Shown in pieces: positions 1-23,952 of a DNA stretch of 64,000 nucleotides (positions are counted from its first letter, which is position 1; each line of letters starts with the position of its first letter). The DNA lies in NCBI GenBank assembly GCA_964019425.1, contig OZ025804.1, positions 372,001 to 436,000 on the forward strand, written 5' to 3'. The DNA is from Flectonema sp. DT1601. Its lineage: Eukaryota. The position numbers and the translations under genes were made by a program. A model generated the notes under the pieces. That model worked only from the letters and a program-made list of their open reading frames with translations, did not search any database and was not told where the DNA came from.

Positions 1-1111
1 AGTCTCCGACAGCTGAAACATTGCTGAGACTTGATAAGTCCAGAGATGTGAGGGATGGACAACTATTTAGGAAAAAGTCTCCAACAGCTGAAACATTGCT
101 GAGACCTGATAAGTTAACAGATGTGAGGGATGTACAAGCGCTTAGAAAAAAGTCTCCAACAGCTGAAACATTGCTGAGACCTGATAAGTTAACAGATGTG
201 AAGGATGAACAATTACTTAGAAAAAAGTTTCCAACAACTGAAACATTGCTGAGACTTGATAAGTTAACAGATGTGAGAGAAAAACAGGAATTTAGAAAAC
301 AGTCTCCAACAGCTAAAACATTGCTGAGACTTGATAAATCTACAGATGTGAGGGATGGACAATTACTTAGAAAATAACTTCCAACAGCTGAAACATTGCT
401 GAAACTTGATAAGTCAACAGATGTGAGGGATGAACAATTACGTAGAAAACAATCTCCAACAACTGAAATATTGCTGATACTTGATAAGTCAACAGATGTG
501 AGGGATGAACAATTACCTAGAAAACCATCTCCAACAACTGAAACATTGCTGAGACTTGATAAGTCTATGGATGACAGTGAATTGCAATCTTGGAGGAAAT
601 TATTACCAACAGATGTGATGTATTGAAGACCAGGCAGACTGACCTTTATAATGGCATGCTTTGACAATAAGAATTCATCCGAAACGGTCGTGACTGAGGG
701 TTCAGAGTTGCTGAATGAGATGTTCGTAACATCATCCGAGAACCACTCCCTGTTATTAAACTGAAGACAGCCATCCACAGCGAATGTGGGAGTATCAAGG
801 CAGAAAAACCCGTCCTGATCCCGTTCTCCTCGTAGGAATGCCTTCGCTCTCTTTGCATCATCTGTAAACCATTCCAATCCAAACAAGCGCACTACAGATG
901 CATCCAACAGCGAGCCGTCCTCCACTCCGTGCGACACCAGTCGACTACCTGCTCGAAGCAGCGATCCTGCGAATGAAAGCTCAAGAAAGTCAGCATCGGT
1001 ATCCCACTCATCAGCTGCAACCTGCAATGCATCCTTCACGAGCGACTCTCCAGAAGCTGTGAAAACAACGTCAGGAAATCCTGTGTCTGGGAACGTAACC
1101 GAGAGTTGCAT
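1..1111 (-). CDS. UBL + BspA-type LRR protein, array copy 1 (3' end runs off the window)
   Basis: Same MQLSVTFPDTG start (CAT at 1109-1111) and 75-bp repeats as the other copies. Carries an in-frame variant segment FLLSKHAIIKV. Absent from the ORF track because its stop lies outside the window. Confidence 0.85.
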   Translation of the reverse strand, partial: MQLSVTFPDTGFPDVVFTASGESLVKDALQVAADEWDTDADFLELSFAGSLLRAGSRLVSHGVEDGSLLDASVVRLFGLEWFTDDAKRAKAFLRGERDQDGFFCLDTPTFAVDGCLQFNNREWFSDDVTNISFSNSEPSVTTVSDEFLLSKHAIIKVSLPGLQYITSVGNNFLQDCNSLSSIDLSSLSNVSVVGDGFLGNCSSLTSVDLSSISNISVVGDCFLRNCSSLTSVDLSSFSNVSAVGSYFLSNCPSLTSVDLSSLSNVLAVGDCFLNSCFSLTSVNLSSLSNVSVVGNFFLSNCSSFTSVNLSGLSNVSAVGDFFLSACTSLTSVNLSGLSNVSAVGDFFLNSCPSLTSLDLSSLSNVSAVGD

Positions 1112-1347
1112 TTTAACTCGCCCGAGTAACCTACGAAATGTGATGATGAATAGCTTGGAGTATGAGTATGATGAGATTAAAGAACGTGCAAAAACATATT
1201 TCTTCAAACGGACTTCTTTTTTTTTGTTGCACAATATGGTCCCAACCTATTGAGATTAATGCTGGGTTCTGATAATGTCATCTTCGCTGTTAAGTAAAAA
1301 AGTGATAAGTAGGTTTCGCTTTCAAAGAAGAATCAGTTAAAACAATT

Positions 1348-1518
1348 ATTTTATTTATTTATTTATTTATTTATGAAGCCTAGGAAGACAAAAGCCAGGA
1401 AAAGCTCACAGGGTAACAGTTATATCGCTACCAGCAACCGTGAGACTCTCATAGACGATAACAGACGTAGAATAACCTGGAACAAATGACTACCTAAACC
1501 CACCGTCCACGCGAGCAG
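1348..1518 (-). mobile_element. ~170-bp SINE-like retroposon with (TAAA)n tail
   Basis: Absent from the homologous spacers (empty site AAAACAATTGTCGGG near 5805, 12678, 21525). Flanked by a 6-bp duplication ACAATT (1342-1347 and 1519-1524). (TATT)n on + is a 3' tail on -. Diverged homologs at 50519-50683 and 33597-33660. Confidence 0.8.
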
Positions 1519-1659
1519 ACAATTGTCGGGTTAAAACGAATCGGTGAGTGAAATTTACGCAAGAACAACCATACGATCTCTTACAGTTTAGTTGCGGGTT
1601 TGGGGGGGGTGTACGAGTCATCCTTTAAAGAAAAATACATCAACGAATATGCACACAGC

Positions 1660-1741
1660 TGCTGTCAGTAGATGCAGTACCGCAAACAGCACTAGAAACT
1701 CCCAACATTGCGGCCAGTGCAGTAAGTCTGAGTAACTTCAT
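1660..1741 (-). pseudogene. Orphan 5' fragment (signal peptide MKLLRLTALAAMLGVSSAVCGTASTDS) of the DOMON-protein gene
   Basis: Identical to the first 27 codons of 56624..58375, with its upstream region attached. Further copies at 5948-6029, 12826-12907, 21673-21754 and 55799-55880. Confidence 0.85.
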
Positions 1742-1962
1742 GATTAGCAGGTGGCAATAAACTGTGAAAAAAATATTTTAACAATCCGAGTGACTACAAA
1801 CTGATAGTTCCTTAGAATTACGACAACAGGAATGTTTCATCTAAATTATTTATTGTTTCCGTTTTAAGAATCGAAACATAAAATCAAATGATCCGTCATA
1901 TGAACATCTTAAATGAAGGGAAGTGGAAATAGACCTACACCCTTAGAGTATATATCCTTTTA

Positions 1963-3655
1963 AAGACGTTAGTACTGACGACATTTCAAACACGCAAAGG
2001 ACCAGCTGCTTTTGTCTTCAGTGCCAAGTGCAGAGAGAGACTCAAACAAGATCCATCGGTTAAAATCAGCAAGTAACTGTCTCTAGCCAAAACAAAAAAA
2101 AAAGGAATCGGATTTATCTTAAATTATACTTTGTTGGCACGAATCGGTGAACCGACTAAAAAGAAAGGAATGTTTACGTGTGCTGGCAGCATTTATTTTA
2201 AAGACGTTCCTACTGACGATATTTCAAACACGCAAAGGACCAGCTGTTTTTGTCTTCAGTGCCAAGTGCAGAGAGCGACTCAAACAAGATCCATCGGTTA
2301 AAATCAGCAAGTAACTGTCTCTAGCCAAAACAAAAAAAAAAGGAATCGGATTTATCTTAAATTATACTTTGTTGGCACGAATCGGTGAACCGACTAAAAA
2401 GAAAGGAATGTTTACGTGTGCTGGCAGCATTTCTTTTAAAGACGTTCCTACTGACGACATTTCAAACACGCAAAGGACCAGCTGCTTTTGTCTTCAGTGC
2501 CAAGTGCAGAGAGAGACTCAAACAAGATCCATCGGTTGAAATCAGTAAGTAACTGTCGCTAGCCAAAACAAAAAAAAAAGGAATTGGATTTATCTTAAAT
2601 TATTAAATTATACTTTGTTGGTGCACGAATCGGTGAACCGACTAAAAAGAAAGGAATGTTTACGTGTGCTGGCAGCATTTCTTTTAAAGACGTTAGTACT
2701 GACGACATTTCAAACACGCAAAAGACCAGCTGCTTTTGTCTTCAGTGCCAAGTGCAGAGAGCGACTCAAACAAGATCCATCGGTTAAAATCAGCAAGTAA
2801 CTGTCTCTAGCCAAAACAAAAAAAAAAGGAATCGGATTTATCTTAAATTATACTTTGTTGGCACGAATCGGTGAACCGACTAAAAAGAAAGGAATGTTTA
2901 CGTGTGCTGGCAGCATTTCTTTTAAAGACGTTCCTACTGACGACATTTCAAACACGCAAAAGACCAGCTGCTTTTGTCTTCAGTGCCAAGTGCAGAGAGA
3001 GACTCAAACAAGATCCATCGGTTGAAATCAGTAAGTAACTGTCGCTAGCTAGAAACACAAAAAAAAGAAAATTGGATTTATCTTAAATTATTAAATTATA
3101 CTTTGTTGGTGCACGAATCGGTGAACCGACTAAAAAGAAACGAATGTTTACGTGTGCTGGCAGCATTTCTTTTAAAGACGTTCCTACTGACGACATTTCA
3201 AACACGCAAAAGACCAGCTGCTTTTGTCTTCAGTGCCAAGTGCAGAGAGAGACTCAAACAAGATCCATCGGTTGAAATCAGTAAGTAACTGTCGTAGCTA
3301 GAAACACAAAAAAAAGGAATCGGATTTATCTTAAATTATACTTTGTTGGTGCACGAATCGGCGAACCGACTAGAAAGAAACGAATGTTTACGTGTGCTGG
3401 CAGCATTTCTTTTAAAGACGTTCCTACTGACGACATTTCAAACACGCAAAGGACCAGCTGCTTTTGTCTTCAGTGCCAAGTGCAGAGAGAGACTCAAACA
3501 AGATCCATCGGTTGAAATCAGTAAGTAACTGTCGCTAGCCATAACAAAAAAAAAAGGAATCGGATTTATCTTAAATTATACTTTGTTGGTGCACCAAACT
3601 GTGAATCGACTAAAAAGAAAAGAAGGTTTACATGTGCCGGCAGCAATTTCTTTTG
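1963..3655. repeat. Tandem repeat, 7 units of 238-250 bp
   Basis: Units start AAGACGTT(AG/CC)TACTGACGA at 1963, 2201, 2439, 2687, 2925, 3175 and 3415. Single copies of the unit occur near 56100, 59119 and 62219. Confidence 0.95.
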
Positions 3656-4337: not shown

Positions 4338-5582
4338 TTACAAATTCTTTATGCTCGTATGCAGTTCGTCTCTGTTAATGGATGAACAATCTTTTAGGAA
4401 ATCACTTCCAACGGATTCCACATTCATGAGGGTTAAATCCAAGGATGTAAGTGATGAACAATTTCTTAAAAAATTGTTTCCAACAACTGACACATTGCTG
4501 AAACTTGATAAGTCCAGAGATGTGAGGGAGGAACAATTACGTAGAAAATAGTCTCCAACAACTGACACATTGCTGAGACTGGATAAGTTAACAGATGTGA
4601 GGGATCTACAAGCGCTTAGAAAATGGTGTCCAACAACTGAAATATTGCTGAGACTTGACAAGTCAAGAAATGTGAGGGATGAACAACCAATGAGAAAATA
4701 GTTTCCAACAACTGAAACATTGCTGAGACTTGATAAGTCAAGAAATGTGAGGGATGACAAAAAATTTACAAAATTGTTTCTAACAACTGAAACATTGCTG
4801 AGACCTGATAAGTCCAGAGATGTGAGGGATCTACAAGAAATTAGAAAATTTTTTTCAACAACTGAAACATTGCTGAGACTTGATAAGTCCAGAGATGTGA
4901 GGGATAAACAATTACTTAAAAAACAATCTCCAACAACTGAAACATTGCTGAGACCTGATAAGTCAACAGATGTGAGGGATGTACAATTATATAAAAAACA
5001 ATATCCAATAACTGAAACATTGCTGAGACTTGATAAGTCTACGGATGACAGTGAATTGCATTCTAAGAGGAAATTATTACCAACAGATGTGACGTATTGA
5101 AGACCAGGCAGACTGACTTTTATAACCTTACGAGATGAGGATAAGAAATCTGAAACGGTCGTGACTGAGGGTTCAGAGTTGCTGAATGAGATGTTCGTAA
5201 CATCATCCGAGAACCACTCACTGTTATTAAACTGAAGACAGCCATCCACAGCGAATGTGGGAGTATCAAGGCAGAAAAACCCGTCCTGATCCCGTTCTCC
5301 TCGTAGGAATGCCTTCGCTCTCTTTGCATCATCTGTAAACCATTCCAATCCAAACAAGCGCACTACAGATGCATCCAACAGCGAGCCGTCCTCCACTCCG
5401 TGCGACACCAGTCGACTACCTGCTCGAAGCAGCGATCCTGCGAATGAAAGCTCAAGAAAGTCAGCATCGGTATCCCACTCATCAGCTGCAACCTGCAATG
5501 CATCCTTCACGAGCGACTCTCCAGAAGCTGTGAAAACAACGTCAGGAAATCCTGTGTCTGGGAACGTAACCGAGAGTTGCAT
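4338..5582 (-). CDS. UBL + LRR protein, array copy 2 (414 aa, 10 repeats)
   Basis: N-terminus aligns with ubiquitin (MQ..V...LSFAG..L..G..L..HGV..GS.L). 25-aa repeats SSLTSVDLSSLSNVSxVGxxFLxxC follow. Start placed at MQLSV because the upstream frame has indels between copies. Confidence 0.9.
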   Translation of the reverse strand: MQLSVTFPDTGFPDVVFTASGESLVKDALQVAADEWDTDADFLELSFAGSLLRAGSRLVSHGVEDGSLLDASVVRLFGLEWFTDDAKRAKAFLRGERDQDGFFCLDTPTFAVDGCLQFNNSEWFSDDVTNISFSNSEPSVTTVSDFLSSSRKVIKVSLPGLQYVTSVGNNFLLECNSLSSVDLSSLSNVSVIGYCFLYNCTSLTSVDLSGLSNVSVVGDCFLSNCLSLTSLDLSSLSNVSVVEKNFLISCRSLTSLDLSGLSNVSVVRNNFVNFLSSLTFLDLSSLSNVSVVGNYFLIGCSSLTFLDLSSLSNISVVGHHFLSACRSLTSVNLSSLSNVSVVGDYFLRNCSSLTSLDLSSFSNVSVVGNNFLRNCSSLTSLDLTLMNVESVGSDFLKDCSSINRDELHTSIKNL

Positions 5583-6251
5583 TTTAACTCGCCTGAGTAA
5601 CCTACGAAATGTGATGTTGAATGGCTTGGAGTATGATGAGATTAAAGAACGTGCAAAACATATTTCTTCAAACGGACTTCTTTTTTTCATGCTGCACAAT
5701 TTAGTCCCAACCTATTGAGATTAACGCTGGGTTCTGATAATGTCATCTTCGCTGTTAAAGTAAAAAGTGATAATTAGGTTTCGCTTTCAAAGAAGAATCA
5801 GTTAAAACAATTGTCGGGTTAAAACGAATCGGTGAGTGAAATTTACGCAAGAACAACCATACGATCTCTTACAGTTTAGTTGCGGGTTTGGGGGGGGTGT
5901 ACGGGTCATCCTTTAAAGAAAAATACATCAAAGAATATGCACACAGCTGCTGTCAGTAGATGCAGTACCGCAAACAGCACTAGAAACTCCCAACATTGCG
6001 GCCAGTGCAGTAAGTCTGAGTAACTTCATGATTAGCAGGTGGCAATAAACTGTGAAAAGAAATATTTTAATAATCCGAGTGACTACAAACTGATAGTTCC
6101 TTAGAATTACGACAACAGGAATGTTTCATCTAAATTATTTATTGTTTCCGTTTTAAGAATCGAAACATAAAATCAAACGATCCGTCATATGAACATCTTA
6201 AATGAAGGGAAGTGGAAATAGACCTACACCCTTAGAGTATATATCCTTTGG

Positions 6252-6298
6252 ACAACGTCAGGAAACCCTGTGTCTGGGAACGTAACCAAGAGTTGCAT
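6252..6298 (-). pseudogene. Truncated UBL-LRR gene head (MQLLVTFPDTGFPDVV) with intact 5' leader
   Basis: First 16 codons of the array gene, joined to DOMON-gene upstream DNA at ATATCCTTT|GG. The same junction recurs at 13129-13175 and 21977-22023. Confidence 0.85.
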
Positions 6299-7100: not shown

Positions 7101-8357
7101 TTACAAATTCTTTATGCTCGTATGCAGTTCGTCTCTGTTAATGGATGAACAATCTTTTAGGAAATTACTTCCAACGGATTCCACATTCATGAGGGTTAAA
7201 TCCAAGGAAGTAAGTGATGAACAATTTCTTAGAAAACAGTCTCCAACAGCTGAAACATTGCTGAGACTTGATAAATCTACAGATGTGAGGGATGAACAAC
7301 TACTTAGAAAATAGTCTCCAACAGCTGAAATATTGCTGAGACCTGATAAGTCTAGGGATGTGAGGGATGAACAATTACTTAGAAAACAATCTCCAACAAC
7401 TGAAACATTGCTGAGACTTGATAAATCTACAGATGTGAGGGATGAACAATAATATAGAAAATAATTTCCAACAACTGAAACATTGCTGAGACTTGATAAA
7501 TCTACAGATGTGAGGGATGAACAACCATTTAGAAAATGATTTCCAACAGCTGAAACATTGCTGATACTTGATAAGTCAACAGATCTGAGGGATGAACAAT
7601 TATATAAAAAACAACCTCCAACAACTGAAACATTGCTGAGACTTGATAAGTCTACAGATGTGAGGGATGAACAACCATTTAGAAAATGATTTCCAACAGC
7701 TGAAACATTGCTGATACTTGATAAGTCAACAGATCTGAGGGATGAACAATTATATAAAAAACAACCTCCAACAACTGAAACATTGCTGAGACTTGATAAG
7801 TCTATGGATGACAGTGAATAGCAATGTTTGAGGAAATTATTACCAACAGATGTGACGTATTGAAGACCAGGCAGACTGACCTTTTTAACCTTTTTAACCT
7901 TACGAGATGAGGATAAGAAATTATCCGAAACGGTCGTGACTGAGGGTTCAGAGTTGCTGAATGAGATGTTCGTAACATCATCCGAGAACCACTCACTGTT
8001 ACTAAACTGAAGACAGCCATCCACAGCGAATGTGGGAGTATCAAGGCAGAAAAACCCGTCCTGATTCCGTTCTCCTCGTAGGAATGCCTTCGCTCTCTTT
8101 GCAGCATCTGTAAACCATTCCAATCCAAACAAGCGCACCACAGATGCATTCAACAGCGAGCCGTCCTCCACTCCGTACGACACCAGTCGATTACCTGCTC
8201 GAAGCAGCGATCCTGCGAATGAAAGCTCAAGAAAGTCAGCATCGGTATCCCACTCATCAACTGCAACCTGCAATGCATCCTTCACGAGCGACTCTCCAGA
8301 AGCTGTGAAAACAACGTCAGGAAATCCTGTGTCTGGGAACGTAACCGAGAGTTGCAT
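7101..8357 (-). CDS. UBL + LRR protein, array copy 3 (418 aa, 10 repeats)
   Basis: As copy 2. Contains a 150-bp internal duplication (GGCFLYNC/GNHFLNGC twice) and a 9-bp duplication (KVKKVKKV). Confidence 0.9.
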   Translation of the reverse strand: MQLSVTFPDTGFPDVVFTASGESLVKDALQVAVDEWDTDADFLELSFAGSLLRAGNRLVSYGVEDGSLLNASVVRLFGLEWFTDAAKRAKAFLRGERNQDGFFCLDTPTFAVDGCLQFSNSEWFSDDVTNISFSNSEPSVTTVSDNFLSSSRKVKKVKKVSLPGLQYVTSVGNNFLKHCYSLSSIDLSSLSNVSVVGGCFLYNCSSLRSVDLSSISNVSAVGNHFLNGCSSLTSVDLSSLSNVSVVGGCFLYNCSSLRSVDLSSISNVSAVGNHFLNGCSSLTSVDLSSLSNVSVVGNYFLYYCSSLTSVDLSSLSNVSVVGDCFLSNCSSLTSLDLSGLSNISAVGDYFLSSCSSLTSVDLSSLSNVSAVGDCFLRNCSSLTSLDLTLMNVESVGSNFLKDCSSINRDELHTSIKNL

Positions 8358-8483
8358 TTTAACCCGCCTGAGTAACCTACGAAATGTGATGATGAATGGC
8401 TTGGAGTATGATGAGATTAAAGAACGTGCAAAACATATTTCTTCAAACGGACTTCTTTTTTTCATGCTGCACAATGTAGTCCC

Positions 8484-8571
8484 AACCTATTGAGATTAAC
8501 GCTGGGTTCTGATAATGTCATCTTCGCTGTTAAGTAAAAAGTGATAAGCAGGTTTCGCTTTCAAAGAAGAA
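8484..8571 (-). repeat. ~90-bp box: direct repeat on the 3' side of the retroelement and leader of all array genes
   Basis: AACCTATT...GGGTTCTGATAATGTCATCTTCGCTGTTAAGTAAAAAGTGATAA...TTTCGCTTTCAAAGAAGAA. 11 copies starting at 1244, 5709, 6424, 8484, 12579, 13301, 15530, 19296, 21432, 22150 and 24079 (last one shorter). Confidence 0.9.
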
Positions 8572-8958
8572 ATTTTGTGGCATGTTGCGGTCACAGATGT
8601 TACAGTACATATTACTACTTACTTTCGCAAATTTCAGGTTGTGTCTTGCTGGACATAAGTGAAGCTCTTCTCCAAAAATTAGAATGTCTGAATCTTCTAA
8701 TAAATTAATAAGTACATCCACAACTAACTCTTCATCAATCGTATTAGAACTTGAGGAAGTAGTTGAGGAAGATGAATCGGAAGAGGTCACAGATACGGTT
8801 TCTGAGGTTAAATCTGAGCAACTTGACATTGTTGTAGCTGCTTTCATTTTGATCTCATCGAAGTACCAGTAATGTAACAGTTCGTAAACATCATAATTAA
8901 CGTTGTCGAAGTTCATAGTGGCACCCGCTTTTCGATATAAGTGTATCAGCGTCGACAA
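8530..8958 (-). pseudogene. 3'-terminal ORF fragment of the retroelement: Ser-rich linker plus partial Cys/His finger
   Basis: CPARHNL...YCNICD resembles the first half of a C1/DC1-like finger. The frame reads into the 90-bp box and stops inside it. Confidence 0.5.
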
Positions 8959-9008
8959 AATTAGGACACATTTTCGCTAGTTCAGGTATTATTAAATTCA
9001 TAAAAGCC

Positions 9009-9470
9009 TCATAATTCCATTGCGACATAGTAAATACGGTGCATTGTTTTCCGTGACTTCTCGGTAAGATTGGCATATAGTCGCTCAGAAGTAGTATGGT
9101 ATGCCATTACGCTAATCGTACCCCAAAAATACGTATCCTCTGTACTGGCTGGGGAAATCCATCGTAAGCTTTTTTCCTGCACGCTATTAATAGTGATTAG
9201 TATTAAAGAACATCCCATTTCATCTAAGAAAGCTTGAATATACACATGAACTGTATATGGATTACTGTTAAGTACATCTTCTGTGAATTTTTCATAATCT
9301 GTGTCTACAAAACTTTGGTATTGCTCCTTCTTTAAAGTCAGTCTACGATGTATAACTCTACGATGTATAACTCTACGTACCCATTCAGCGTTTATGACTC
9401 CATTTTGACAAATTATTAGTGCCATAGATTCAAAGAAACAATTACCTGCTGTGTTTACCGAGGGTATTGT
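9009..9470 (-). pseudogene. OTU-like cysteine protease domain of the retroelement
   Basis: IPSVNTAGNCFFESMALII..AEWVRR..YQSFVDTDYEKF..IQAF..SLILI matches the OTU (D/A)GNC(L/F)F pattern. Same frame as the RT thumb in ORF 9009..10028. Catalytic His not clearly identifiable. Confidence 0.65.
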
Positions 9471-9949
9471 TAAGTTCCAGTCCATAGTTTCTAGCAGAGT
9501 TTTCATATCCCGAAACGTAAAATAAGAAACCAACTCGTTCAAATGTCCCAGATTCACCTTGGCATCCGAATTGGTAGGGGATGACAAATTTTGAACTAAG
9601 ACAGCTGTTCTGTCGGTTTCAATTTCATCTTTCTCGATGGGCGGGTACGTTATATAGTTTCTTTCACTAGTCGGGTAGTAATAATCTTTCTTCAAGCCTT
9701 CAAGGATCCGGTAGAAAAGATTGATGCATCTTTTATTGACAAAAGGATATTCTTCATAGAATTCATCACAAAATTCCTTGTAGCCGGTTGATATGTGATG
9801 CTTTTTAAATTTTCTATTAATCATCCGATAAATTATCCATTCAAACTCTATTAGTAGGTCAGAAAGGTTGTTACAAATCATGCTGGCTCTATACATCGCT
9901 CCTTTAACTATACCTTTGGGTATGGAATCAGGCATCGTGGAGTCTGCAT

Positions 9950-12671: not shown

Positions 12672-14230
12672 TCAGTTAAAACAATTGTCGGGTTAAAACG
12701 AATCGGTGAGTGAAATTTACGCAAGAACAACCATACGATCTCTTACAGTTTAGTCGCGGGTTTGGGGGGGGTGTACGGGTCATCCTTTAAAGAAAAATAC
12801 ATCAAAGAAAGAATATGCACACAGCTGCTGTCAGTAGATGCAGTACCGCAAACAGCACTAGAAACTCCCAACATTGCGGCCAGTGCAGTAAGTCTGAGTA
12901 ACTTCATGATTAGCAGGTGGCAATAAACTGTGAAAAAAATATTTTAACAATCCGAGTGACTACAAACTGATAGTTCCTTAGAATTACGACAACAGGAATG
13001 TTTCATCTAAATTATTTATTGTTTCCGTTTCAAGAATCGAAACATAAAATCAAACGATCCGTCGTATGAACATCCTAAATGAAGGGAAGTGGAAATAGAC
13101 CTACACCCTTAGAGTATATATCCTTTGGACAACGTCAGGAAACCCTGTGTCTGGGAACGTAACCAAGAGTTGCATTTTAACTCGCCTGAGTAACCTACGA
13201 AATGTGATGATGAATGGCTTGGAGTATGATGAGATTAAAGAACGTGCAAAAACGTATTTCTTCAAACAGACTTCTTTCTTATGATACACGATTTAGTCTC
13301 AACCTATTGAAGTTGGGGGGTCCTGATAATGTCATCTTCGCTGTTAAGTAAAAAATGATAATTAAGTTTCGCTTCAAAGAAGAAACAGACAAATCAAAAA
13401 CAAACAGCGGCTGACTTTAGCTAAACAACGCAGTGATTGCGGTGACAAGTTCCGTATCAGCGTTACTGAATTTTTCGATCCACCGAACCTGAAGAAATTC
13501 CTAATTATCCGTGGCTTTCACCTCGTTAATGATAGCCATGTGATTGATTGTTGATAATAATAATAATAAAACTGAATACATATGAACTACATCACTATCT
13601 GTTCATCATCGTATGGTGTGAAGTCCCTGGGGAGTTCCTTGTTTTAGTAATTACTTTGAGGGAGTAATAAGATACTTAATCAGGCTCAATGTAACAACAC
13701 TACGGGGAAGCTAAAGTCATACGGCACTGGAGAATCACAGCAGGGAGAGGATCCCAGAAACGTCAATCAAAAAAAGGTTCACAAAAGAGAAGATTTCGGT
13801 AATAAGCTTTCCATCACTGTTTGCACCTGAGAAGGAAATATGATAAGAGAATAAGGCATTAACTAAACAAGCTGAGATCAACACAAAGAAGTATCTACAC
13901 TGTGGATGGGTGCAGATTACTTCCACTCGAGCAGGGAATGTGTCAGGCCCGTTTCGATTCGACCAGACACTGGCGGGGGAAGGATGCGGGTGGGGAATAC
14001 CAAATGGGGTTGGGAGTCTGATAGAATATGACCCAGTCAAGGGAATAAGAACACTGCAATGCGATCAAATATTCAATTCCAACTAACAAACACTTGTTAA
14101 GAGTGTGTGAGCGAACACACATCTTCTTTTCTGAAAACACCAACAAATAAAAGATAAGTTAAATACTTTGAAATAAAACTAAGGGAACAACGCACACACA
14201 CTAAAAACAACACTTATGTGATTTATGTAA

Positions 14231-15403
14231 TTACAAATTCTTTATGCTCGTATGCAGTTCGTCTCTGTTAATGGATGAACAACCTTCTAGGAAATTACTT
14301 CCAACGGATTCCACATTCATGAGGGTTAAATCCAAGGATGTAAGTGATGAACAATCTCTTAGAAAATAGTCTCCGACAGCTGAGACATTGCTGAGACTGG
14401 ATAAGTTAACAGATGTGAGGGATGAACAATCACTTAGAAAGTAGTCTCCGACAGCTGAAACATTGCTGAGACTTGATAAATCTACAGATGTGAGGGATGA
14501 ACAAAAATACAGAAATTTGTTTCCAACAACTGAAACATTGCTGAGACTTGATAAGTTAACAGATGTGAGGGATGAACAATTATATAGAAAACAATCTCCA
14601 ACAGCTGAAATATTGCTGAGACCTGATAAGTCAACAAATGTGAGGGATGAACAATGAAATAGAAAAAAGTTTCCAACAACTGACACATTGTTGAGACTTG
14701 ATAAATCTACAGATGTGAGGGATGAACAATAAAATAGAAAATATTCACCAACAACTGACACATTGCTGAGACTGGATAAGTTAACAGATGTGAGGGATGA
14801 ACAATTACTTAGAAAGTAGTCTCCGACAGCTGACACATTGCTGAGACTTGATAAGTCTACGGATGACAGTGAATTGCAATGTTTGAGGAAATTATTACCA
14901 ACAGATGTGACGTATTGAAGACCAGGAAGGCTGACCTTTATAACCTTACGAGATGAGGATAAGAATTTATCCGAAACGGTCGTGACTGAGGGTTCAGAGT
15001 TGCTGAATGAGATGTTCGTAACATCATCCGAGAACCACTTTCTGTTACTAAACTGAAGACAGCCATCCACAGCGAATGTGGGAGTATCAAGGCAGAAAAA
15101 CCCGTCCTGATCCCGTTCTCCTCTTAGGAATGCCTTCGCTCTCTTTGCAGCATCTGTGAACCATTCCAATCCAAACAAGCGCACCACAGATGCATCCAAC
15201 AGCGAGCCGTCCTCCACTCCGTGCGACACCAGTCGACTACCTGCTCGAAGCAGCGATCCTGCGAATGAAAGCTCAAGAAAGTCAGCATCGGTATCCCACT
15301 CATCAGCTGCAACCTGCAATGCATCCTTCACGAGCGACTCTCCAGAAGCTGTGAAAACAACGTCAGGAAATCCTGTGTCTGGGAACGTAACCGAGAGTTG
15401 CAT
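14231..15403 (-). CDS. UBL + LRR protein, array copy 4 (390 aa, 9 repeats)
   Basis: Intact ORF with the same architecture as copy 2. Confidence 0.9.
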   Translation of the reverse strand: MQLSVTFPDTGFPDVVFTASGESLVKDALQVAADEWDTDADFLELSFAGSLLRAGSRLVSHGVEDGSLLDASVVRLFGLEWFTDAAKRAKAFLRGERDQDGFFCLDTPTFAVDGCLQFSNRKWFSDDVTNISFSNSEPSVTTVSDKFLSSSRKVIKVSLPGLQYVTSVGNNFLKHCNSLSSVDLSSLSNVSAVGDYFLSNCSSLTSVNLSSLSNVSVVGEYFLFYCSSLTSVDLSSLNNVSVVGNFFLFHCSSLTFVDLSGLSNISAVGDCFLYNCSSLTSVNLSSLSNVSVVGNKFLYFCSSLTSVDLSSLSNVSAVGDYFLSDCSSLTSVNLSSLSNVSAVGDYFLRDCSSLTSLDLTLMNVESVGSNFLEGCSSINRDELHTSIKNL

Positions 15404-15761: not shown

Positions 15762-16640
15762 TTACAAAAACACAAAACTGGATTCCAAATCCGTGTTGCT
15801 TTCACTTTCATTGATAGCCTGTCTGATTATGTGATTACTATTTAATTCATAGAATCCTCCCAGCAAGACTTCACTACAACCAGATAAGAAGTAATAACGA
15901 CCATCACTGTAGCAGTTCCCTATTCCTGTAATGTTTTTCAACACTGAAATGTTGAGTGATTCCAAAACAGGACAACAAGAGAGGAAAGCTTCTCCAATAT
16001 TTGTTAATTTCGCAAATGAGGAAATGTCAATCGAAGTTAACCCAGCACATCCAAGTAGGAATCCAGCTCCAATGGTTGTGACATTCTGAAGACAAGACAG
16101 ATTTAGGCTTTTTATTGAGGTACAACCACACAGAAAATAATCCCCCAATGCTTGTACGCTGTCGAAACCCACGAAATTCAATAATTCGATGTTAGAATCT
16201 GATAAAAAGTTTGTGCCAACAGAAGAAATGACAAGATCCGCATTGAAAAACGCTATTCTCTGAACTCCGAGAGGCAACATCTCAGATTGAAAATCAAAGC
16301 ATCCATCCACAGTGAAGGTTGTTGCGTCAACACATAAAATGTTAAAGCTATCAGTGAACATGGTGGATAATTTATCTTTTTTTTCTTTAGTTGTAAACCA
16401 TATCTTACTAAAGAGAGTCATTGTTGATGCCATTAGATGGGAATTTGAATCAATTCCGTGTGAAAGTAAAATACTTTCTTCCGAAAGAACAATGCCAGCA
16501 TAACTTATCTCAAGGATTTCATTTTCTATATCCCACTCATCAGCCACAGCCTCTGATACGTTTCTAACGAGTGTCGATTCAGTCACCATCAACGATATGT
16601 CTGACAACAAAGATGTTGAATGTGATATTGTGACTTGCAT
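15762..16640 (-). CDS. Divergent UBL + LRR paralog
   Basis: MQVTIS..ADEWDI...LEISYAG..L...HGI, CVDATTFTVDGC and GxxFLxGC repeats. Same architecture as the array genes at low identity. Confidence 0.85.
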   Translation of the reverse strand: MQVTISHSTSLLSDISLMVTESTLVRNVSEAVADEWDIENEILEISYAGIVLSEESILLSHGIDSNSHLMASTMTLFSKIWFTTKEKKDKLSTMFTDSFNILCVDATTFTVDGCFDFQSEMLPLGVQRIAFFNADLVISSVGTNFLSDSNIELLNFVGFDSVQALGDYFLCGCTSIKSLNLSCLQNVTTIGAGFLLGCAGLTSIDISSFAKLTNIGEAFLSCCPVLESLNISVLKNITGIGNCYSDGRYYFLSGCSEVLLGGFYELNSNHIIRQAINESESNTDLESSFVFL

Positions 16641-17622: not shown

Positions 17623-19170
17623 TTACAAATTCTTTATGCTCGTATGCAGTTCGTCTCTGTTAATGGATGAACAATCTTTTAGGAAATTACTTCCAACGGA
17701 TTCCACATTCATGAGGGTTAAATCCAAGGATGTAAGTGATGAACAATTACTTAGAAAATTGTTTCCAACAACTGAAACATTGCTGAAACTTGATAAGTTA
17801 ACAGATGTGAGGGATGAACAATCACTTAGAAAATAGTCTCTGACAGCTGAAACATTACTGAGACATGATAAATCTACAGATGTGAGGAATGAACAATCAC
17901 TTAGAAAATAGTCTCCGACAGCTGAGACATTGCTGAGACTGGATAAGTTAACAGATGTGAGGGATGAACAATCACTTAGAAAATAGTCTCCGACAGCTGA
18001 GACATTGCTGAGACTGGATAAGTTAACAGATGTGAGGGATGAACAATCACTTAGAAAGTAGTCTCCGACAGCTGAAACATTGCTGAGACTTGATAAATCT
18101 ACAGATGTGAGGGATGAACAATCACTTAGAAAATAGTCTCCGACAGCTGAGACATTGCTGAGACTGGATAAGTTAACAGATGTGAGGGATGAACAATCAC
18201 TTAGAAAAAAGTCTCCGACAGCTGAGACATTGCTGAGACTTGATAAATCTACAGATGTGAGGAATGAACAATCACTTAGAAAATAGTCACCAACAACTGA
18301 AACATTGCTGAGACTTGATAAGTTAACAGATGTGAGGGATGAACAATCACTTAAAAAAAAGTCTCCAACAACTGAAATATTGCTGAGACTAGATAAGTTA
18401 ACAGATGTCAGGGATGAACAATCACTTAAAAAAACGTTTCCGACAGCTGAAATATTGCTGAGACCTGATAAGTCAACAGATGTGAGGGATGAACAATTAC
18501 GTAGAAAACAATCTCCAACAACTGAAACATTGCTGAGACCTGATAAGTCAACAGATGTGAGGGATGAACAATTATATAGAAAACCATCTCCAACAGCTGA
18601 AACATTGCTGAGACTTGATAAGTCTATGGATGACAGTGAATTGCAATATCTGAGGAAATTATTACCAACAGATGTGACGTATTGAAGACCAGGAAGGCTG
18701 ACCTTTATAACCTTACGAGATGAGGATAAGAAATCATCCGAAACGGTCGTGACTGAGGGTTCAGAGTTGCTGAATGAGATGTTTGTAACATCATCCGAGA
18801 ACCACTCACTGTTACTAAACTGAAGACAGCCATCCACAGCGAATGTGGGAGTATCAAGGCAGAAAAACCCGTCCTGATCCCGTTCTCCTCGTAGGAATGC
18901 CTTCGCTCTCTTTGCAGCATCTGTGAACCATTCCAATCCAAACAAGCGCACCACAGATGCATCCAACAGAGAGCCGTCCTCCACTCCGTGCGACACCAGT
19001 CGACTACCTGCTCGAAGCAGCGATCCTGCGAATGAAAGCTCAAGAAAGTCAGCATCGGTATCCCACTCATCAGCTGCAACCTGCAATGCATCCTTCACGA
19101 GCGACTCTCCAGAAGCTGTGAAAACAACGTCAGGAAATCCTGTGTCTGGGAACGTAACCGAGAGTTGCAT
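17623..19170 (-). CDS. UBL + LRR protein, array copy 5 (515 aa, 14 repeats)
   Basis: Intact ORF with a run of near-identical GDYFLSDC repeats. Confidence 0.9.
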   Translation of the reverse strand: MQLSVTFPDTGFPDVVFTASGESLVKDALQVAADEWDTDADFLELSFAGSLLRAGSRLVSHGVEDGSLLDASVVRLFGLEWFTDAAKRAKAFLRGERDQDGFFCLDTPTFAVDGCLQFSNSEWFSDDVTNISFSNSEPSVTTVSDDFLSSSRKVIKVSLPGLQYVTSVGNNFLRYCNSLSSIDLSSLSNVSAVGDGFLYNCSSLTSVDLSGLSNVSVVGDCFLRNCSSLTSVDLSGLSNISAVGNVFLSDCSSLTSVNLSSLSNISVVGDFFLSDCSSLTSVNLSSLSNVSVVGDYFLSDCSFLTSVDLSSLSNVSAVGDFFLSDCSSLTSVNLSSLSNVSAVGDYFLSDCSSLTSVDLSSLSNVSAVGDYFLSDCSSLTSVNLSSLSNVSAVGDYFLSDCSSLTSVNLSSLSNVSAVGDYFLSDCSFLTSVDLSCLSNVSAVRDYFLSDCSSLTSVNLSSFSNVSVVGNNFLSNCSSLTSLDLTLMNVESVGSNFLKDCSSINRDELHTSIKNL

Positions 19171-19982: not shown

Positions 19983-21305
19983 TTACAAATTCTTTATGCT
20001 CGTATGCAGTTCGTCTCTGTTAATGGATGAACAACCTTCTAGGAATTTACTTCCAACGGATTCCACATTCATGAGGGTTAAATCCAAGGAAGTAAGTGAT
20101 GAACAATTAAATAGAAAACAGTCTCCAACAACCGAAATATTGCTGAGACTTGATAAGTTAACAGATGTGAGGGATGAACAATTATTTAGAAAATAGTTTC
20201 CAACAGCTGAAACATTGCTGAGACTTGATAAGTTAACAGATGTGAGGGAGGAACAATTATCCAGAAAATAGTTTCCAACAGCTGAAATATTGCTGAGACT
20301 TGATAAGTTAACAGATGTGAGGGATGAACAATTACAAAGAAAAAAGTCTCCAACAACTGAAACATTGCTGAGACTAGATAAGTTAACAGATGTCAGGGAT
20401 GAACAATCACTTAAAAAAACGTTTCCGACAGCTGAAATATTGCTGAGACCTGATAAGTCAACAGATGTGAGGGATGAACAATTACGTAGAAAACAATCTC
20501 CAACAACTGAAACATTGCTGAGACCTGATAAGTCAACAGATGTCAGGGATGAACAATTATATAGAAAACCATCTCCAACAGCTGAAATATTGCTGAGACC
20601 TGATAAGTCAACAAATGTGAGGGATGAACAATAATATAGAAAATATTTTCCAACAGCTGAAACATTGCTGAGACTTGATAAGTCCAGAAATGTGAGGGAT
20701 GAACAATCACTTAGAAAATAGTCTCCAACAACTGAAACATTGCTGAGACTTGATAAGTCTACAGATGACAGTGAATAGCAATGTTGGAGGAAATTATTAC
20801 CAACAGATGTGACGTATTGAAGACCAGGAAGGCTGACCTTTATAACCTTACGAGATGAGGATAAGAATTCATCCGAAACGGTCGTGACTGAGGGTTCAGA
20901 GTTGCTGAATGAGATGTTCGTAACATCATCTGAGAACCACTCACTGTTACTAAACTGAAGACAGCCATCCACAGCGAATGTGGGAGTATCAAGGCAGAAA
21001 AACCCGTCCTGATCCCGTTCTCCTCGTAGGAATGCCTTCGCTCTCTTTGCATCATCTGTGAACCATTCCAATCCAAACAAGCGCACCACAGATGCATTCA
21101 ACAGCGAGCCGTCCTCCACTCCGTGCGACACCAGTCGACTACCTGCTCGAAGCAGCGATCCTGAGAATGAAAGCTCAAGAAAGTCAGCATCGGTACCCCA
21201 CTCATCAGCTGCAACCTGCAATGCATCCTTCACGAGCGACTCTCCAGAAGCTGTGAAAACAACGTCAGGAAATCCTGTGTCTGGGAACGTAACCGAGAGT
21301 TGCAT
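19983..21305 (-). CDS. UBL + LRR protein, array copy 6 (440 aa, 11 repeats)
   Basis: Intact ORF. Mosaic of copies 5 and 7. Confidence 0.9.
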   Translation of the reverse strand: MQLSVTFPDTGFPDVVFTASGESLVKDALQVAADEWGTDADFLELSFSGSLLRAGSRLVSHGVEDGSLLNASVVRLFGLEWFTDDAKRAKAFLRGERDQDGFFCLDTPTFAVDGCLQFSNSEWFSDDVTNISFSNSEPSVTTVSDEFLSSSRKVIKVSLPGLQYVTSVGNNFLQHCYSLSSVDLSSLSNVSVVGDYFLSDCSSLTFLDLSSLSNVSAVGKYFLYYCSSLTFVDLSGLSNISAVGDGFLYNCSSLTSVDLSGLSNVSVVGDCFLRNCSSLTSVDLSGLSNISAVGNVFLSDCSSLTSVNLSSLSNVSVVGDFFLCNCSSLTSVNLSSLSNISAVGNYFLDNCSSLTSVNLSSLSNVSAVGNYFLNNCSSLTSVNLSSLSNISVVGDCFLFNCSSLTSLDLTLMNVESVGSKFLEGCSSINRDELHTSIKNL

Positions 21306-22779
21306 TTTAACTCGCCCAAGTAACCTACGAAATGTGATGATGAATAGCTTGGAGTATGATGAGATTAAAGAACGTGCAAAACATATTTCTTCAAACAGAC
21401 TTCTTTTTTTCATGCTGCACAATTTAGTCCCAACCTATTGAGATTAAGTTAGGTTCTGATAATGTCATCTTCGCTGTTAAGTAAAAAGTGATAATTAAGT
21501 TTCGCTTTCAAAGAAGAATCAGTTAAAACAATTGTCGGGTTAAAACGAATCGGTGAGTGAAATTTACGCAAGAACAACCATACGGTCTCTTACAGTTTAG
21601 TCGCGGGTTTGGGGGGGGTGTACGAGTCATCCTTTAAAGAAAAATACATCAAAGAAAGAATATGCACACAGCTGCTGTCAGTAGATGCAGTACCGCAAAC
21701 AGCACTAGAAACTCCCAACATTGCGGCCAGTGCAGTAAGTCTGAGTAACTTCATGATTAGCAGGTGGCAATAAACTGTGAAAAAAAATATTTTAATAATC
21801 CGAGTGACTACAAACTGATAGTTCCTTAGAATTACGACAACAGGAATGTTTCATCTAAATTATTTATTGTTTCCGTTTTAAGAATCGAAACATAAAATCA
21901 AACGATCCGTCGTATGAACATCCTAAATGAAGGGAAGTGGAAATAGACCTACACCCTTAGAGTATATATCCTTTGGACAACGTCAGGAAACCCTGTGTCT
22001 GGGAACGTAACCAAGAGTTGCATTTTAACTCGCCTGAGTAACCTACGAAATGTGATGATGAATGGCTTGGAGTATGATGAGATTAAAGAACGTGCAAAAA
22101 CATATTTCTTCAAACAGACTTCTTTCTTATGATAACACGATTTAGTCTCAACCTATTGAAGTTGGGGGTTCTGATAATGTCATCTTCGCTGTTAAGTAAA
22201 AAGTGATAATTAAGTTTCGCTTTCAAAGAAGAAACAGACAAATCAACACTACGGGGAAGCTAAAGTCATACGGCACTGGAGAATCACAGCAGGGAGAGGA
22301 ACCCAGAAACGTCAATCAAAAAAAGGTTCACAAAAGAGAAGATTTCGGTAATAAGCTTTCCATCACTGTTTGCACCTGAGAAGGAAATATGATAAGAGAA
22401 TAAGGCATTAACTAAACAAGCTAAGATCAACACAAAGAAGTATCTACACTGTGGATGGGTGCAGATTGCTCCCACTCGAGCAGGGAATGTGTCAGGCCCG
22501 TTTCGATTCGATCGGACACTGGTGGGGGAAGGATGCGGGTGGGGAATACCAAATGGGGTTGGGAGTCTGATAGAATATGACCCAGTCAAGGAAATAAGAA
22601 CACTGCAATGCAATCAAATATTCAATTCCAACTAACAAACACTTGTTAAGAGTGTGTGAGCGAACACACATCTTCTTTTCTGAACACACCAACAAATAAA
22701 AGATAAATTAAATACTTTGAAATAAAACTAAGGGAACAACGCATGCACACTAAAAACAACACTTATGTGATTTATGTAA

Positions 22780-23952
22780 TTACAAATTCTTTATGCTCGT
22801 ATGCAGTTCGTCTCTGTTAATGGATGAACAACCTTCTAGGAATTTACTTCCAACGGATTCCACATTCATGAGGGTTAAATCCAAGGAAGTAAGTGATGAA
22901 CAATTAAATAGAAAACAGTCTCCAACAACCGAAATATTGCTGAGACTTGATAAGTTAACAGATGTGAGGGATGAACAATTATTTAGAAAATAGTTTCCAA
23001 CAGCTGAAACATTGCTGAGACTTGATAAGTTAACAGATGTGAGGGAGGAACAACTATCCAGAAAATAGTTTCCAACAGCTGAAATATTGCTGAGACTTGA
23101 TAAGTTAACAGATGTGAGGGATGAACAATTACAAAGAAACTCGCTTCCAACAGCTGAAACATTGCTGAGACTTGATAAGTTAACAGATGTGAGGGATGCA
23201 CAATTAAATAGAAAACCATCTCCAACAGCTGAAATATTGCTGAGACCTGATAAGTCAACAAATGTGAGGGATGAACAATAATATAGAAAATATTTTCCAA
23301 CAGCTGAAACATTGCTGAGACTTGATAAGTCCAGAAATGTGAGGGATGAACAATTACTTAGAAAATAGTCTCCAACAACTGAAACATTGCTGAGACTTGA
23401 TAAGTCTACAGATGACAGTGAATAGCAATGTTGGAGGAAATTATTACCAACAGATGTGACGTATTGAAGACCAGGAAGGCTGACCTTTATAACCTTACAA
23501 GATGAGGATAAGAATTCATCCGAAACGGTCGTGACTGAGGGTTCAGAGTTGCTGAATGAGATGTTCGTAACATCATCTGAGAACCACTCACTGTTATTAA
23601 ACTGAAGACAGCCATCCACAGCGAATGTGGGAGTATCAAGGCAGAAAAACCCGTCCTGATCCCGTTCTCCTCGTAGGAATGCCTTCGCTCTCTTTGCATC
23701 ATCTGTAAACCATTCCAATCCAAACAAGCGCACCACAGATGCAACCAACAGCGAGCCGTCCTCCACTCCGTACGACACCAGTCGACTACCTGCTCGAAGC
23801 AGCGATCCTGCGAATGAAAGCTCAAGAAAGTCAGCATCGGTATCCCACTCATCAGCTGCAACCTGCAATGCATCCTTCACGAGCGACTCTCCAGAAGCTG
23901 TGAAAACAACGTCAGGAAATCCTGTGTCTGGGAACGTAACCGAGAGTTGCAT
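22780..23952 (-). CDS. UBL + LRR protein, array copy 7 (390 aa, 9 repeats)
   Basis: Intact ORF, first of the array in transcription order. Confidence 0.9.
   Translation of the reverse strand: MQLSVTFPDTGFPDVVFTASGESLVKDALQVAADEWDTDADFLELSFAGSLLRAGSRLVSYGVEDGSLLVASVVRLFGLEWFTDDAKRAKAFLRGERDQDGFFCLDTPTFAVDGCLQFNNSEWFSDDVTNISFSNSEPSVTTVSDEFLSSSCKVIKVSLPGLQYVTSVGNNFLQHCYSLSSVDLSSLSNVSVVGDYFLSNCSSLTFLDLSSLSNVSAVGKYFLYYCSSLTFVDLSGLSNISAVGDGFLFNCASLTSVNLSSLSNVSAVGSEFLCNCSSLTSVNLSSLSNISAVGNYFLDSCSSLTSVNLSSLSNVSAVGNYFLNNCSSLTSVNLSSLSNISVVGDCFLFNCSSLTSLDLTLMNVESVGSKFLEGCSSINRDELHTSIKNL

What the first reader, a model, noticed from the sequence alone, without database searches (positions are those of the whole stretch)
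1..23952. Candidate diversified intracellular receptor locus: tandem UBL-LRR genes with four hypervariable codons per repeat
Seen: seven genes share an almost invariant UBL head, linker, C-cap and UTRs, but differ in repeat number (9, 9, 10, 10, 11, 14 in the complete copies). They also differ at the four x positions of GxxFLxxC (DY/SD, GC/YN, NH/NG, KY/YY, SE/CN, HH/SA, EY/FY, NK/YF, DG/FN), while the rest of the 25-aa scaffold barely changes. No signal peptide or TM segment is present. Established: variable LRR solenoids are recognition modules in VLRs, NLRs and BspA-like proteins, and UBL domains often dock on the proteasome or p97. Inference: this is a protist family of cytosolic variable sensors that link binding to the ubiquitin system. 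I do not recognise this arrangement as a described system.
Basis: partly seen in the sequence, partly recalled or inferred. Interest (0 to 1): 0.85.

Follow-up and report, generated by a model that had tools for sequence, protein, structure and literature searches.

The report
Diversifying ubiquitin-LRR binder array, diplonemid
A marine protist, likely a diplonemid, carries seven near-identical genes for a ubiquitin-like head joined to a leucine-rich-repeat rod whose repeats are swapped between genes and change fastest at four positions each; they likely form a variable set of intracellular binding proteins, on a scaffold also found in endosymbiotic bacteria, with targets untested.

Summary
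Observation confirmed. Seven minus-strand genes (one cut by the window edge) encode a ubiquitin-fold head, a cap and 9-14 BspA/TpLRR-class 25-residue repeats, with no signal peptide or membrane segment. Repeats are exchanged between genes (44 of 58 have their nearest relative in another gene). Four codons show dN/dS about 3 against about 0.4 in the scaffold; 0 of 1,011 neutral simulations, including free recombination, reached the observed diversity. It is not DGR-type mutagenesis. Two corrections: the head lacks ubiquitin's Ile44 patch and di-glycine family-wide and is strongly acidic, so direct proteasome docking is unlikely; and the variable residues sit in the GxxFLxxC loop, not on the concave sheet used by VLRs or NLRs. 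New: the family is large in diplonemid-type sequences, and its cap plus repeats are homologous to F-box-like LRR proteins of Holosporales-order bacteria; the repeat type also occurs in kinetoplastids and giant viruses. The direction of transfer is unresolved. The diversification mechanism mirrors fungal het-d/het-e. Best reading: a host repertoire of variable binders in conflict with intracellular bacteria or viruses. Expression of these copies and their targets are not shown. New variant of a known kind; interest 0.62.

The parts
1..1111 (-). UBL-cap-LRR gene 1, 3' end cut by the window edge (8+ repeats)
4338..5582 (-). UBL-cap-LRR gene 2, 414 aa, 10 repeats
7101..8357 (-). UBL-cap-LRR gene 3, 418 aa, 10 repeats; internal two-repeat duplication
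14231..15403 (-). UBL-cap-LRR gene 4, 390 aa, 9 repeats (the modelled copy)
15179..15403 (-). Ubiquitin-fold head of gene 4 (residues 1-75); acidic, no Ile44 patch, no di-glycine
14981..15178 (-). N-cap of gene 4 (residues 76-141), homologous to the cap of Holosporales-order LRR proteins
15762..16640 (-). Divergent family member inside the array, 292 aa (ubiquitin Pfam E 0.001, LRR_5 E 6e-8)
17623..19170 (-). UBL-cap-LRR gene 5, 515 aa, 14 repeats, partly homogenised
19983..21305 (-). UBL-cap-LRR gene 6, 440 aa, 11 repeats; mosaic (two repeats identical to gene 5, three to gene 7)
22780..23952 (-). UBL-cap-LRR gene 7, 390 aa, 9 repeats
6251..6298 (-). 5' stub (16 codons plus the conserved upstream region), truncated at a ~445-bp repeated element
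13128..13175 (-). 5' stub, second copy
21976..22023 (-). 5' stub, third copy
36423..37430 (-). Divergent family member outside the array, 335 aa, ending in a CaaX-like motif (CIVL)

Best explanation
These seven genes are a tandem array whose LRR repeats are exchanged between copies and diversified by positive selection at four or five codons per repeat, and they likely encode cytosolic binding proteins that would recognise fast-changing proteins of intracellular bacteria or viruses and would pass them, through a constant ubiquitin-fold head, to a host partner. Shown: intact frames, UBL-cap-LRR architecture, repeat exchange, repeat-number change, excess amino-acid change at the four codons, purifying selection on the scaffold. 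Predicted from the model: the variable residues lie in the GxxFLxxC loop and, because repeats stack in register, would form one stripe along the rod away from the main beta-sheet; each gene has its own string of combinations, so each would have its own specificity. Inferred: the targets are foreign; the head is an adaptor rather than a modifier or a classical proteasome ligand (no di-glycine, no Ile44 patch, net charge about -10); a link to ubiquitin or SUMO machinery is suggested by bacterial homologues that carry an F-box-like segment on the same cap-LRR module.
For: Site models: M8 vs M8a 2dlnL 35.0, dN/dS 2.9; M2a vs M1a 41.9, dN/dS 3.2; codons 12, 13, 16, 17 posterior 0.999 or more. With their own synonymous rate the four codons still give 2.8 (p 0.006) and 4.5 (p 4e-5). 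Scaffold 0.31-0.53. 0 of 1,011 retained neutral coalescent simulations (one tree or one tree per codon, with or without growth) reached 34 residues in the top four codons; 100 of 431 did at dN/dS 3. Recent changes (18 spanning-tree edges of 4 nt or fewer): 15 nonsynonymous to 1 synonymous at the four codons, 16 to 12 elsewhere. Held-out sites: in the last 36 codons of the six complete genes the only three variable codons are three of these positions; 23 repeats of four close relatives from other contigs have the same four among their five most variable positions. Exchange: 44 of 58 repeats nearest to one in another gene, 6 identical pairs between genes. Variable residues are 72% N, D, Y, S, as in antibody-like binding sites (recalled). 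Context: diplonemids host Holosporaceae and Rickettsiaceae that encode LRR proteins (10.1101/719211, passages); 8 of 23 genomes in the order of a Holosporales MAG match the family profile, up to 13 matches per genome, many from profile position ~80; cap-to-cap profile match probability 94%, E 1.3e-7, score 37.5 against 14.2 at most in 40 shuffles; F-box-like hits in 4 Holosporales proteins, E 4e-4 to 0.12, all under the curated cut-off. Four full-length members are in the Flectonema neradi transcriptome.
Against: No target, partner, localisation or induction was observed. The simple pN/pS ratio of the top four codons (2.5) was reached in 21 of 154 gene-conversion simulations, 20 of them under all-neutral models, so that statistic alone does not show selection. 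The likelihood tests are my own code with branch lengths fixed up to one scale factor, on 25 codons of recombining repeats. The same positions are also variable in bacterial and viral repeats, so they are tolerant surface sites by nature, and in 12 Flectonema repeats codons 12 and 13 are not among the top five. Gene 5 is homogenising rather than diversifying. The head shows no purifying selection among the seven copies (dN/dS 2.2, not different from 1, few changes). Positive selection does not say the driver is foreign.
Confidence: 0.5

Rival explanations
1. Variable binders for self targets: the stripe is selected by kin recognition, internal conflict with selfish elements, or diverse host substrates, not by bacteria or viruses.
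For: The closest evolutionary match, het-d/het-e, acts in self/non-self recognition between individuals of one species (PMC1805685 abstract and section 9). The repeat type occurs in kinetoplastid and diplonemid proteins without the head. A decayed retroelement lies inside the array.
Against: No death or signalling domain is present. The cap-LRR module is shared with intracellular bacteria and the repeat type with giant-virus contigs, which points to a host-parasite interface.
Confidence: 0.2
2. Decoys or competitors: host copies of an effector-type scaffold that bind the same host targets as the symbiont or viral LRR proteins, or soak up their partners, rather than tagging anything for disposal; the head may be bait for foreign ubiquitin enzymes.
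For: Homologous cap and near-identical repeat consensus in Holosporales proteins; head has the fold but not the functional surface of ubiquitin; 22 of 115 UBL-bearing proteins fetched end in CaaX-like motifs, many of them close paralogues.
Against: A bait head would be expected to diversify; here the diversity is in the rod. The seven genes have no CaaX motif. Direction of transfer is unresolved.
Confidence: 0.15
3. No positive selection: repeat homogenisation with purifying selection on the scaffold and free drift at four tolerant surface positions, inflated by gene conversion.
For: 21 of 154 conversion simulations reached the observed pN/pS ratio; the positions are tolerant in all homologues; head dN/dS near 1.
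Against: 0 of 683 simulations of exactly this model and 0 of 328 all-neutral ones reached the observed residue count, nor did 0 of 154; other exposed positions of the repeat stay nearly fixed; 15:1 among recent changes.
Confidence: 0.1
4. Targeted mutagenesis (DGR-like, by the neighbouring reverse transcriptase) writes the diversity.
For: Most variable codons end in T or C and radiate from AAT/GAT/TAT/AGT; an RT fragment lies between genes 3 and 4 (RVT_1 E 2.4e-6).
Against: Scaffold adenines are no more variable than other bases (0.052 against 0.041-0.106; silent third-position A 0.064 against 0.10-0.11); an AAT codon in the same repeat is invariant in 58 of 58; the RT is split across frames; no template repeat was seen in the window.
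Confidence: 0.03
5. Assembly artefact: error-laden or duplicated haplotypes mimic an array.
For: No whole genome or spanning reads were available.
Against: All frames are intact, differences concentrate at four codons, flanks differ between copies, and four close relatives on other long contigs show the same pattern.
Confidence: 0.02

Closest known systems
Podospora anserina HNWD family (het-d, het-e) and other high-internal-conservation fungal NLR repeats (PMC1805685: abstract and section 9; PMC4986451: passages)
   Same: Repeats under concerted evolution within and between genes, variable repeat number, four codons per repeat under positive selection arranged as two pairs around conserved sites; 55 combinations in 69 repeats there, 38 in 58 here.
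   Different: Those are WD40, ANK or TPR repeats on a NACHT/NB-ARC protein with a death domain and a known function; here a TpLRR-class rod on a ubiquitin-fold head, no ATPase, in a euglenozoan, function untested.
BspA/TpLRR proteins (Pfam PF13306; PDB 6mlx, 4fdw, 4cp6)
   Same: Pfam LRR_5 87-152 bits against cut-off 27.7; best fold matches Z 20.5 (4fdw, rmsd 8.7, 302 aligned) and 18.8 (6mlx, rmsd 2.8, 203 aligned).
   Different: 25-residue GxxFLxxC subtype rather than the 23-residue GxxAFxxC unit (recalled consensus); no signal peptide or anchor; ubiquitin-fold head.
GALA F-box-LRR proteins of Ralstonia (PMC2244805: abstract) and F-box/LRR adaptors
   Same: LRR joined to a ubiquitin-system module, exchange between eukaryote and bacterium proposed, selection off the concave face; the Holosporales homologues found here have weak F-box-like hits.
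   Different: GALA repeats are CC-LRR class and bacterial; the window genes are host genes with a UBL, no F-box.
Tetrahymena 90-bp-exon LRR genes (PMC6564038: passages) and brown-algal ROCO LRR exons (PMC11378527: passages)
   Same: Expanded, shuffled LRR repertoires in protists proposed as immune-like; four selected sites per repeat in ROCO; retroelement neighbours in Tetrahymena.
   Different: Those use one repeat per exon; ROCO sites are on the concave sheet and the proteins carry a GTPase; the genes here are single open frames.
Integral UBL proteins (proteasome shuttles such as Rad23/Dsk2; SUMO-like Rad60 domains) (recalled)
   Same: N-terminal beta-grasp without di-glycine; 11 of 48 members hit Pfam ubiquitin and 16 of 48 Rad60-SLD at E 0.05 or less.
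   Different: Ile44 patch absent and head strongly acidic; no UBA domain.

Membership tests
BspA/TpLRR class | Pfam LRR_5 above gathering score and TpLRR fold | tested here: met
   (48 of 48 members)
BspA surface proteins | Signal peptide or membrane anchor | tested here: not met
   hydropathy maximum 1.0-1.3, N-terminus is the UBL
Ubiquitin-like domain | Beta-grasp fold | tested here: met
   family profile positions 1-70 match ubiquitin, E about 4e-7; model pLDDT 94-97 there, TM 0.91 and rmsd 1.2 to ubiquitin
Conjugatable (type I) ubiquitin-like modifier | C-terminal di-glycine after the domain | tested here: not met
   F-G or gap at the matching positions
Proteasome-shuttle UBL | Leu8/Ile44/His68/Val70 hydrophobic patch (recalled) | tested here: not met
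   Ile44 position S76/T10% in 62 heads and S61/G26% in 46; His68 and Val70 positions polar; median charge -11 and -8
p97-binding UBX | Arg plus FPR loop (recalled) | tested here: inconclusive
   no UBX Pfam hit among the 25 families shown of 27; motif not seen by eye; no binding test
NLR / STAND receptor | NACHT or NB-ARC domain | tested here: not met
   no Pfam hit and the whole chain is accounted for by UBL, cap and LRR
HNWD-type high-conservation repeat repertoire | Concerted evolution of repeats between genes | tested here: met
HNWD-type high-conservation repeat repertoire | Positive selection at a few codons per repeat | tested here: met
   weaker statistic
HNWD-type high-conservation repeat repertoire | Allelic repeat polymorphism between strains | not testable with these tools
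   no second strain or spanning reads
HNWD-type high-conservation repeat repertoire | Shown role in non-self recognition | not testable with these tools
   needs experiments
Variable lymphocyte receptors | Variable residues on the concave beta-sheet; secreted or GPI-anchored (recalled) | tested here: not met
   main-strand positions have 0.2-0.9 bit, variable sites lie in the loop after the second short strand
Variable lymphocyte receptors | Somatic assembly from cassettes | tested here: inconclusive
   all genes in the window are complete frames and no loose repeat cassettes were found by tandem-repeat scan; rest of genome not held
Diversity-generating retroelement | Adenine-specific variation, template repeat, intact RT | tested here: not met
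F-box/LRR adaptors | F-box domain | tested here: not met
   none in the window proteins; sub-threshold hits only in Holosporales homologues

The most novel reading that the evidence does not exclude
Diplonemids have an undescribed intracellular immune repertoire built from a scaffold taken from their Holosporales endosymbionts' secreted F-box-LRR proteins: the host replaced the bacterial front end with a ubiquitin-fold adaptor and now diversifies a non-canonical binding stripe by repeat exchange and selection, in an arms race with the bacteria and giant viruses that use the same repeat.
Probability: 0.2. Interest if true: 0.87.

Novelty: new variant of a known kind. Interest (0 to 1): 0.62.

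Why it matters
How single-celled eukaryotes recognise or control intracellular bacteria and viruses is largely open. This locus gives a concrete, testable candidate in diplonemids, an abundant marine group with cultured symbiont-bearing strains: compact single-frame genes, a constant head, and a defined four-residue code per repeat. It extends the het-d/het-e way of making diversity to a third fold and a distant lineage, uses a surface other than the usual LRR concave face, and shows a cap-LRR module shared between host and endosymbiont lineages, whereas a 2026 preprint reports no endosymbiotic gene transfer in diplonemids (10.64898/2026.01.29.702485; abstract start and term search only, no mention of LRR). 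If ordinary, it is still a natural, highly designable repeat-protein scaffold.

Tried and rejected
Whole genome: none held, so copy number per genome is unknown. Sequencing runs: no RNA holder listed; two unlabelled runs of one sample gave only short contigs 85-99% alike, no spanning piece, one with a cDNA-type adapter end; not used as evidence on expression. Single-sequence fold left residues 1-126 unresolved; replaced by the 48-sequence alignment. pN/pS ratio as a test: weak. The diplonemid cap profile alone found no bacterial protein above 5 bits among 395 proteins; a hand-picked five-protein set gave only probability 62%; the match became clear only with 20 distinct caps from 24 GTDB-locus proteins, which had been selected by the family profile and a filter on alignment start, a source of bias. 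Tree of 48 cap-plus-two-repeat rows: careful search unfinished, quick tree only, unrooted; 24 diplonemid-type rows on one side (SH-aLRT 88), two other UBL-bearing or long-contig rows among bacteria with weak support; no direction can be read. Viral scan with one protein found nothing; phage search gave only weak repeat matches. ESM Atlas best scores 0.87 (ubiquitin plus DUF285 clusters), leads only. PADLOC no hits. Rfam nothing credible in 1-26000. DGR and artefact readings rejected as above. F-box seen by eye in unlabelled eukaryote-like homologues was not confirmed by Pfam. No complex prediction was run: no specific partner was in hand.
Full report
Setting. The window is eukaryotic: all 25 ORFs of 200 residues or more lie on the minus strand, as in euglenozoan gene clusters (recalled), and the nearest named relatives of the array proteins are four Flectonema neradi transcriptome proteins, 36-51% identical in the alignment. 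I therefore infer a diplonemid host; the species was not determined and no whole genome is held.

Seven ORFs start at a conserved MQLSV and contain 8+ (cut), 10, 10, 9, 14, 11 and 9 GxxFLxxC units spaced 25 residues apart. Residues 1-141 are on average 96.8% identical and no copy has a stop or hydrophobic segment. In 58 internal repeats, four codons carry 1.8-2.6 bits and all others 1.0 or less, giving 38 combinations; each gene has its own string. The array also holds a divergent member (15762-16640), three identical-type 16-codon 5' stubs each abutting a ~445-bp repeat, and mosaic flanks, the marks of unequal recombination. A second divergent member lies at 36423-37430.

Architecture. Pfam places the repeats in LRR_5 (87 and 152 bits, cut-off 27.7). 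A 48-sequence family profile matches ubiquitin over positions 1-70 (E about 4e-7). The model built on that alignment has mean pLDDT 94.2; its head superposes on ubiquitin (TM 0.91, rmsd 1.2) and its rod best on Bacteroides 4fdw (Z 20.5, rmsd 8.7, 302 aligned) and TpLRR 6mlx (Z 18.8, rmsd 2.8, 203 aligned). In the model the main LRR strand is the SVD/SVN segment, a second short strand precedes the Gly, and the variable residues fall in the loop after it. The main-strand positions are nearly constant (0.2-0.9 bit).

Selection. With my own codon-model code on trees of the 51 distinct repeats, the four codons give dN/dS 3.2-4.8 (whole-repeat tree) or 5.7-8.9 (scaffold tree) against 0.31-0.53 for the scaffold. 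Site models that do not pre-select codons agree: M8 vs M8a 2dlnL 35.0, dN/dS 2.9, the same four codons at posterior 0.999 or more and codon 19 at 0.72-0.93; allowing the four their own synonymous rate leaves 2.8 (p 0.006) or 4.5 (p 4e-5). Because conversion can inflate such tests I simulated nulls. The pN/pS ratio of the top four codons was reached in 21 of 154 retained conversion simulations, so it is weak, though none of the 154 reached the observed 34 distinct residues. In coalescent nulls matched on synonymous alleles, with one tree or one tree per codon, 0 of 1,011 reached 34, while 100 of 431 did at dN/dS 3. Among the 18 shortest of 50 spanning-tree edges the four codons changed 15 times nonsynonymously and once silently, the other 21 codons 16 and 12 times (Fisher p 0.015, not corrected for codon degeneracy). 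Held-out checks agree: the capping repeats vary at the homologous positions, as do 23 repeats from four close relatives on other contigs and 101 from a sister subfamily, but not fully 12 Flectonema repeats. Repeats move between genes: 44 of 58 are nearest to one in another gene and 6 identical pairs span genes. Adenine-directed mutagenesis is excluded, and the neighbouring RT is broken. The head is not shown to be constrained: dN/dS 0.9 over residues 1-141.

The head. Among 115 UBL domains found in the fetched proteins, two subfamilies (62 and 46; 7 unassigned) both lack the Ile44 patch and di-glycine and have median charge -11 and -8. Rad60 SUMO-like hits (16 of 48) outnumber ubiquitin hits (11 of 48), a lead only. 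22 of 115 end in CaaX-like motifs, including the gene at 36423, but not the seven.

Relatives. 108 of 398 fetched proteins combine this head with two or more FLxxC repeats; most come from unnamed long contigs, so the family is large but its size per genome is unknown. The same repeat type without the head occurs in named Holosporales proteins, in Papus ankaliazontas, Flectonema and a Malacoplasma, and in a protein family whose relatives lie on six viral contigs, five labelled giant-virus MAGs, three of which show the 25-residue repeats. In the order of one Holosporales MAG, 8 of 23 genomes match, up to 13 times, often from profile position about 80, that is through the cap. Cap against cap, without repeats, gives probability 94%, E 1.3e-7, score 37.5 against at most 14.2 in 40 column shuffles and 8.4 against the bacterial repeats; the bacterial cap profile picked only bacterial-type and diplonemid-type proteins, none of the long classical BspA proteins. 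The bacterial set was chosen with the family profile, and simpler tests were weak, so I rate common ancestry of the cap-LRR module likely, not certain. Four Holosporales proteins have sub-threshold F-box-like hits after an N-terminus that looks like a signal peptide by eye. The unrooted quick tree separates 24 diplonemid-type rows from the rest (SH-aLRT 88) and gives no direction; since kinetoplastids have the repeat too, host-to-bacterium mimicry is as open as the reverse.

Mechanism. Shown: a repertoire made by tandem duplication, repeat exchange and selection on a four- or five-residue code. Inferred: each protein binds its own target through the stacked stripe in the cytosol; the targets are proteins of intracellular bacteria or viruses, because those are the usual drivers of such selection (recalled), diplonemids carry LRR-encoding endosymbionts (10.1101/719211, passages), and the scaffold is shared with that world; the constant acidic head docks on a host partner, possibly in ubiquitin or SUMO machinery. 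I give this whole chain 0.5; the selection step alone about 0.85. Rivals: self targets 0.2, decoy 0.15, drift 0.1, targeted mutagenesis 0.03, artefact 0.02.

Comparison and novelty. It works like the Podospora het-d/het-e repeat repertoire (PMC1805685, abstract and section 9; PMC4986451, passages) but is not an NLR. Related protist cases are Tetrahymena exon-array LRRs (PMC6564038, passages) and brown-algal ROCOs (PMC11378527, passages); selection off the concave face is reported for GALA F-box-LRRs (PMC2244805, abstract). I found no description of this family: searches for diplonemid + leucine-rich repeat + ubiquitin and for Diplonema + BspA returned 0 papers; searches listed none that describes it by title or abstract start; the main text of the D. 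papillatum genome paper has no 'LRR', 'BspA' or 'ubiquitin' (PMC10161547, term search) and the preprint on absent endosymbiotic transfer none either. Their supplements were not read and the library lacks most subscription journals. Earlier scan notes on Naegleria and fungal F-box/LRR arrays show similar patterns elsewhere and were not checked. Verdict: real, under selection, a new variant of a known kind, with an unexpected link to endosymbiont proteins; interest 0.62.

Noticed in passing
window 8530-12470 (-): Decayed retroelement between genes 3 and 4, split across frames: RT motif fragment at 9911-10222 (RVT_1 E 2.4e-6), downstream ORF with a faint OTU-protease hit (E 0.07), and an upstream segment resembling a GIY-YIG start by eye (no Pfam hit). 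Layout recalls Penelope-like elements with an N-terminal nuclease (recalled).
   Followed up: partly
window 1957-3654: Seven tandem copies of a 238-bp unit, 93% alike, between genes 1 and 2; no Rfam match.
   Followed up: partly
window 1519-1960, 5807-6249, 12681-13126, 21528-21974: A ~445-bp element in four copies, 97-99% alike; three of them abut the truncated 5' stubs. Possibly a non-autonomous mobile element.
   Followed up: no
window 56624-63998 (-): Three tandem genes for a predicted membrane protein with DOMON domains and internal duplication, two nearly identical at 583 aa.
   Followed up: no
window 47146-48777 (-): 543-aa protein with long His/Gln/Glu runs and AEHQ-type repeats; no Pfam family.
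   Followed up: no
P0163: A family member in another contig is called as UBL-LRR fused to a RINT-1/TIP-1 domain (E 5e-15); real fusion or gene-calling read-through not checked.
   Followed up: no
P0318: A EukProt transcriptome protein joins a UBL (19 bits) to a bacterial-type cap (26 bits) and FLxxC repeats; a possible second, independent host-bacterium link. Organism not looked up.
   Followed up: partly
L013-L045 (G001, G013-G016, G019): Expanded, often tandem family of F-box-like cap-LRR proteins in several Holosporales-order genomes, up to 13 matches per genome; looks like an undescribed host-directed family.
   Followed up: partly
L002, L005, L007: Giant-virus MAG contigs encode ~1000-aa proteins with a conserved unknown N-terminal domain of about 550 residues followed by the same 25-residue repeat type.
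   Followed up: partly
ESM Atlas: Other clusters combine ubiquitin with DUF285 (BspA-like) repeats (scores 0.85-0.87), hinting that UBL-plus-repeat fusions arose more than once.
   Followed up: no
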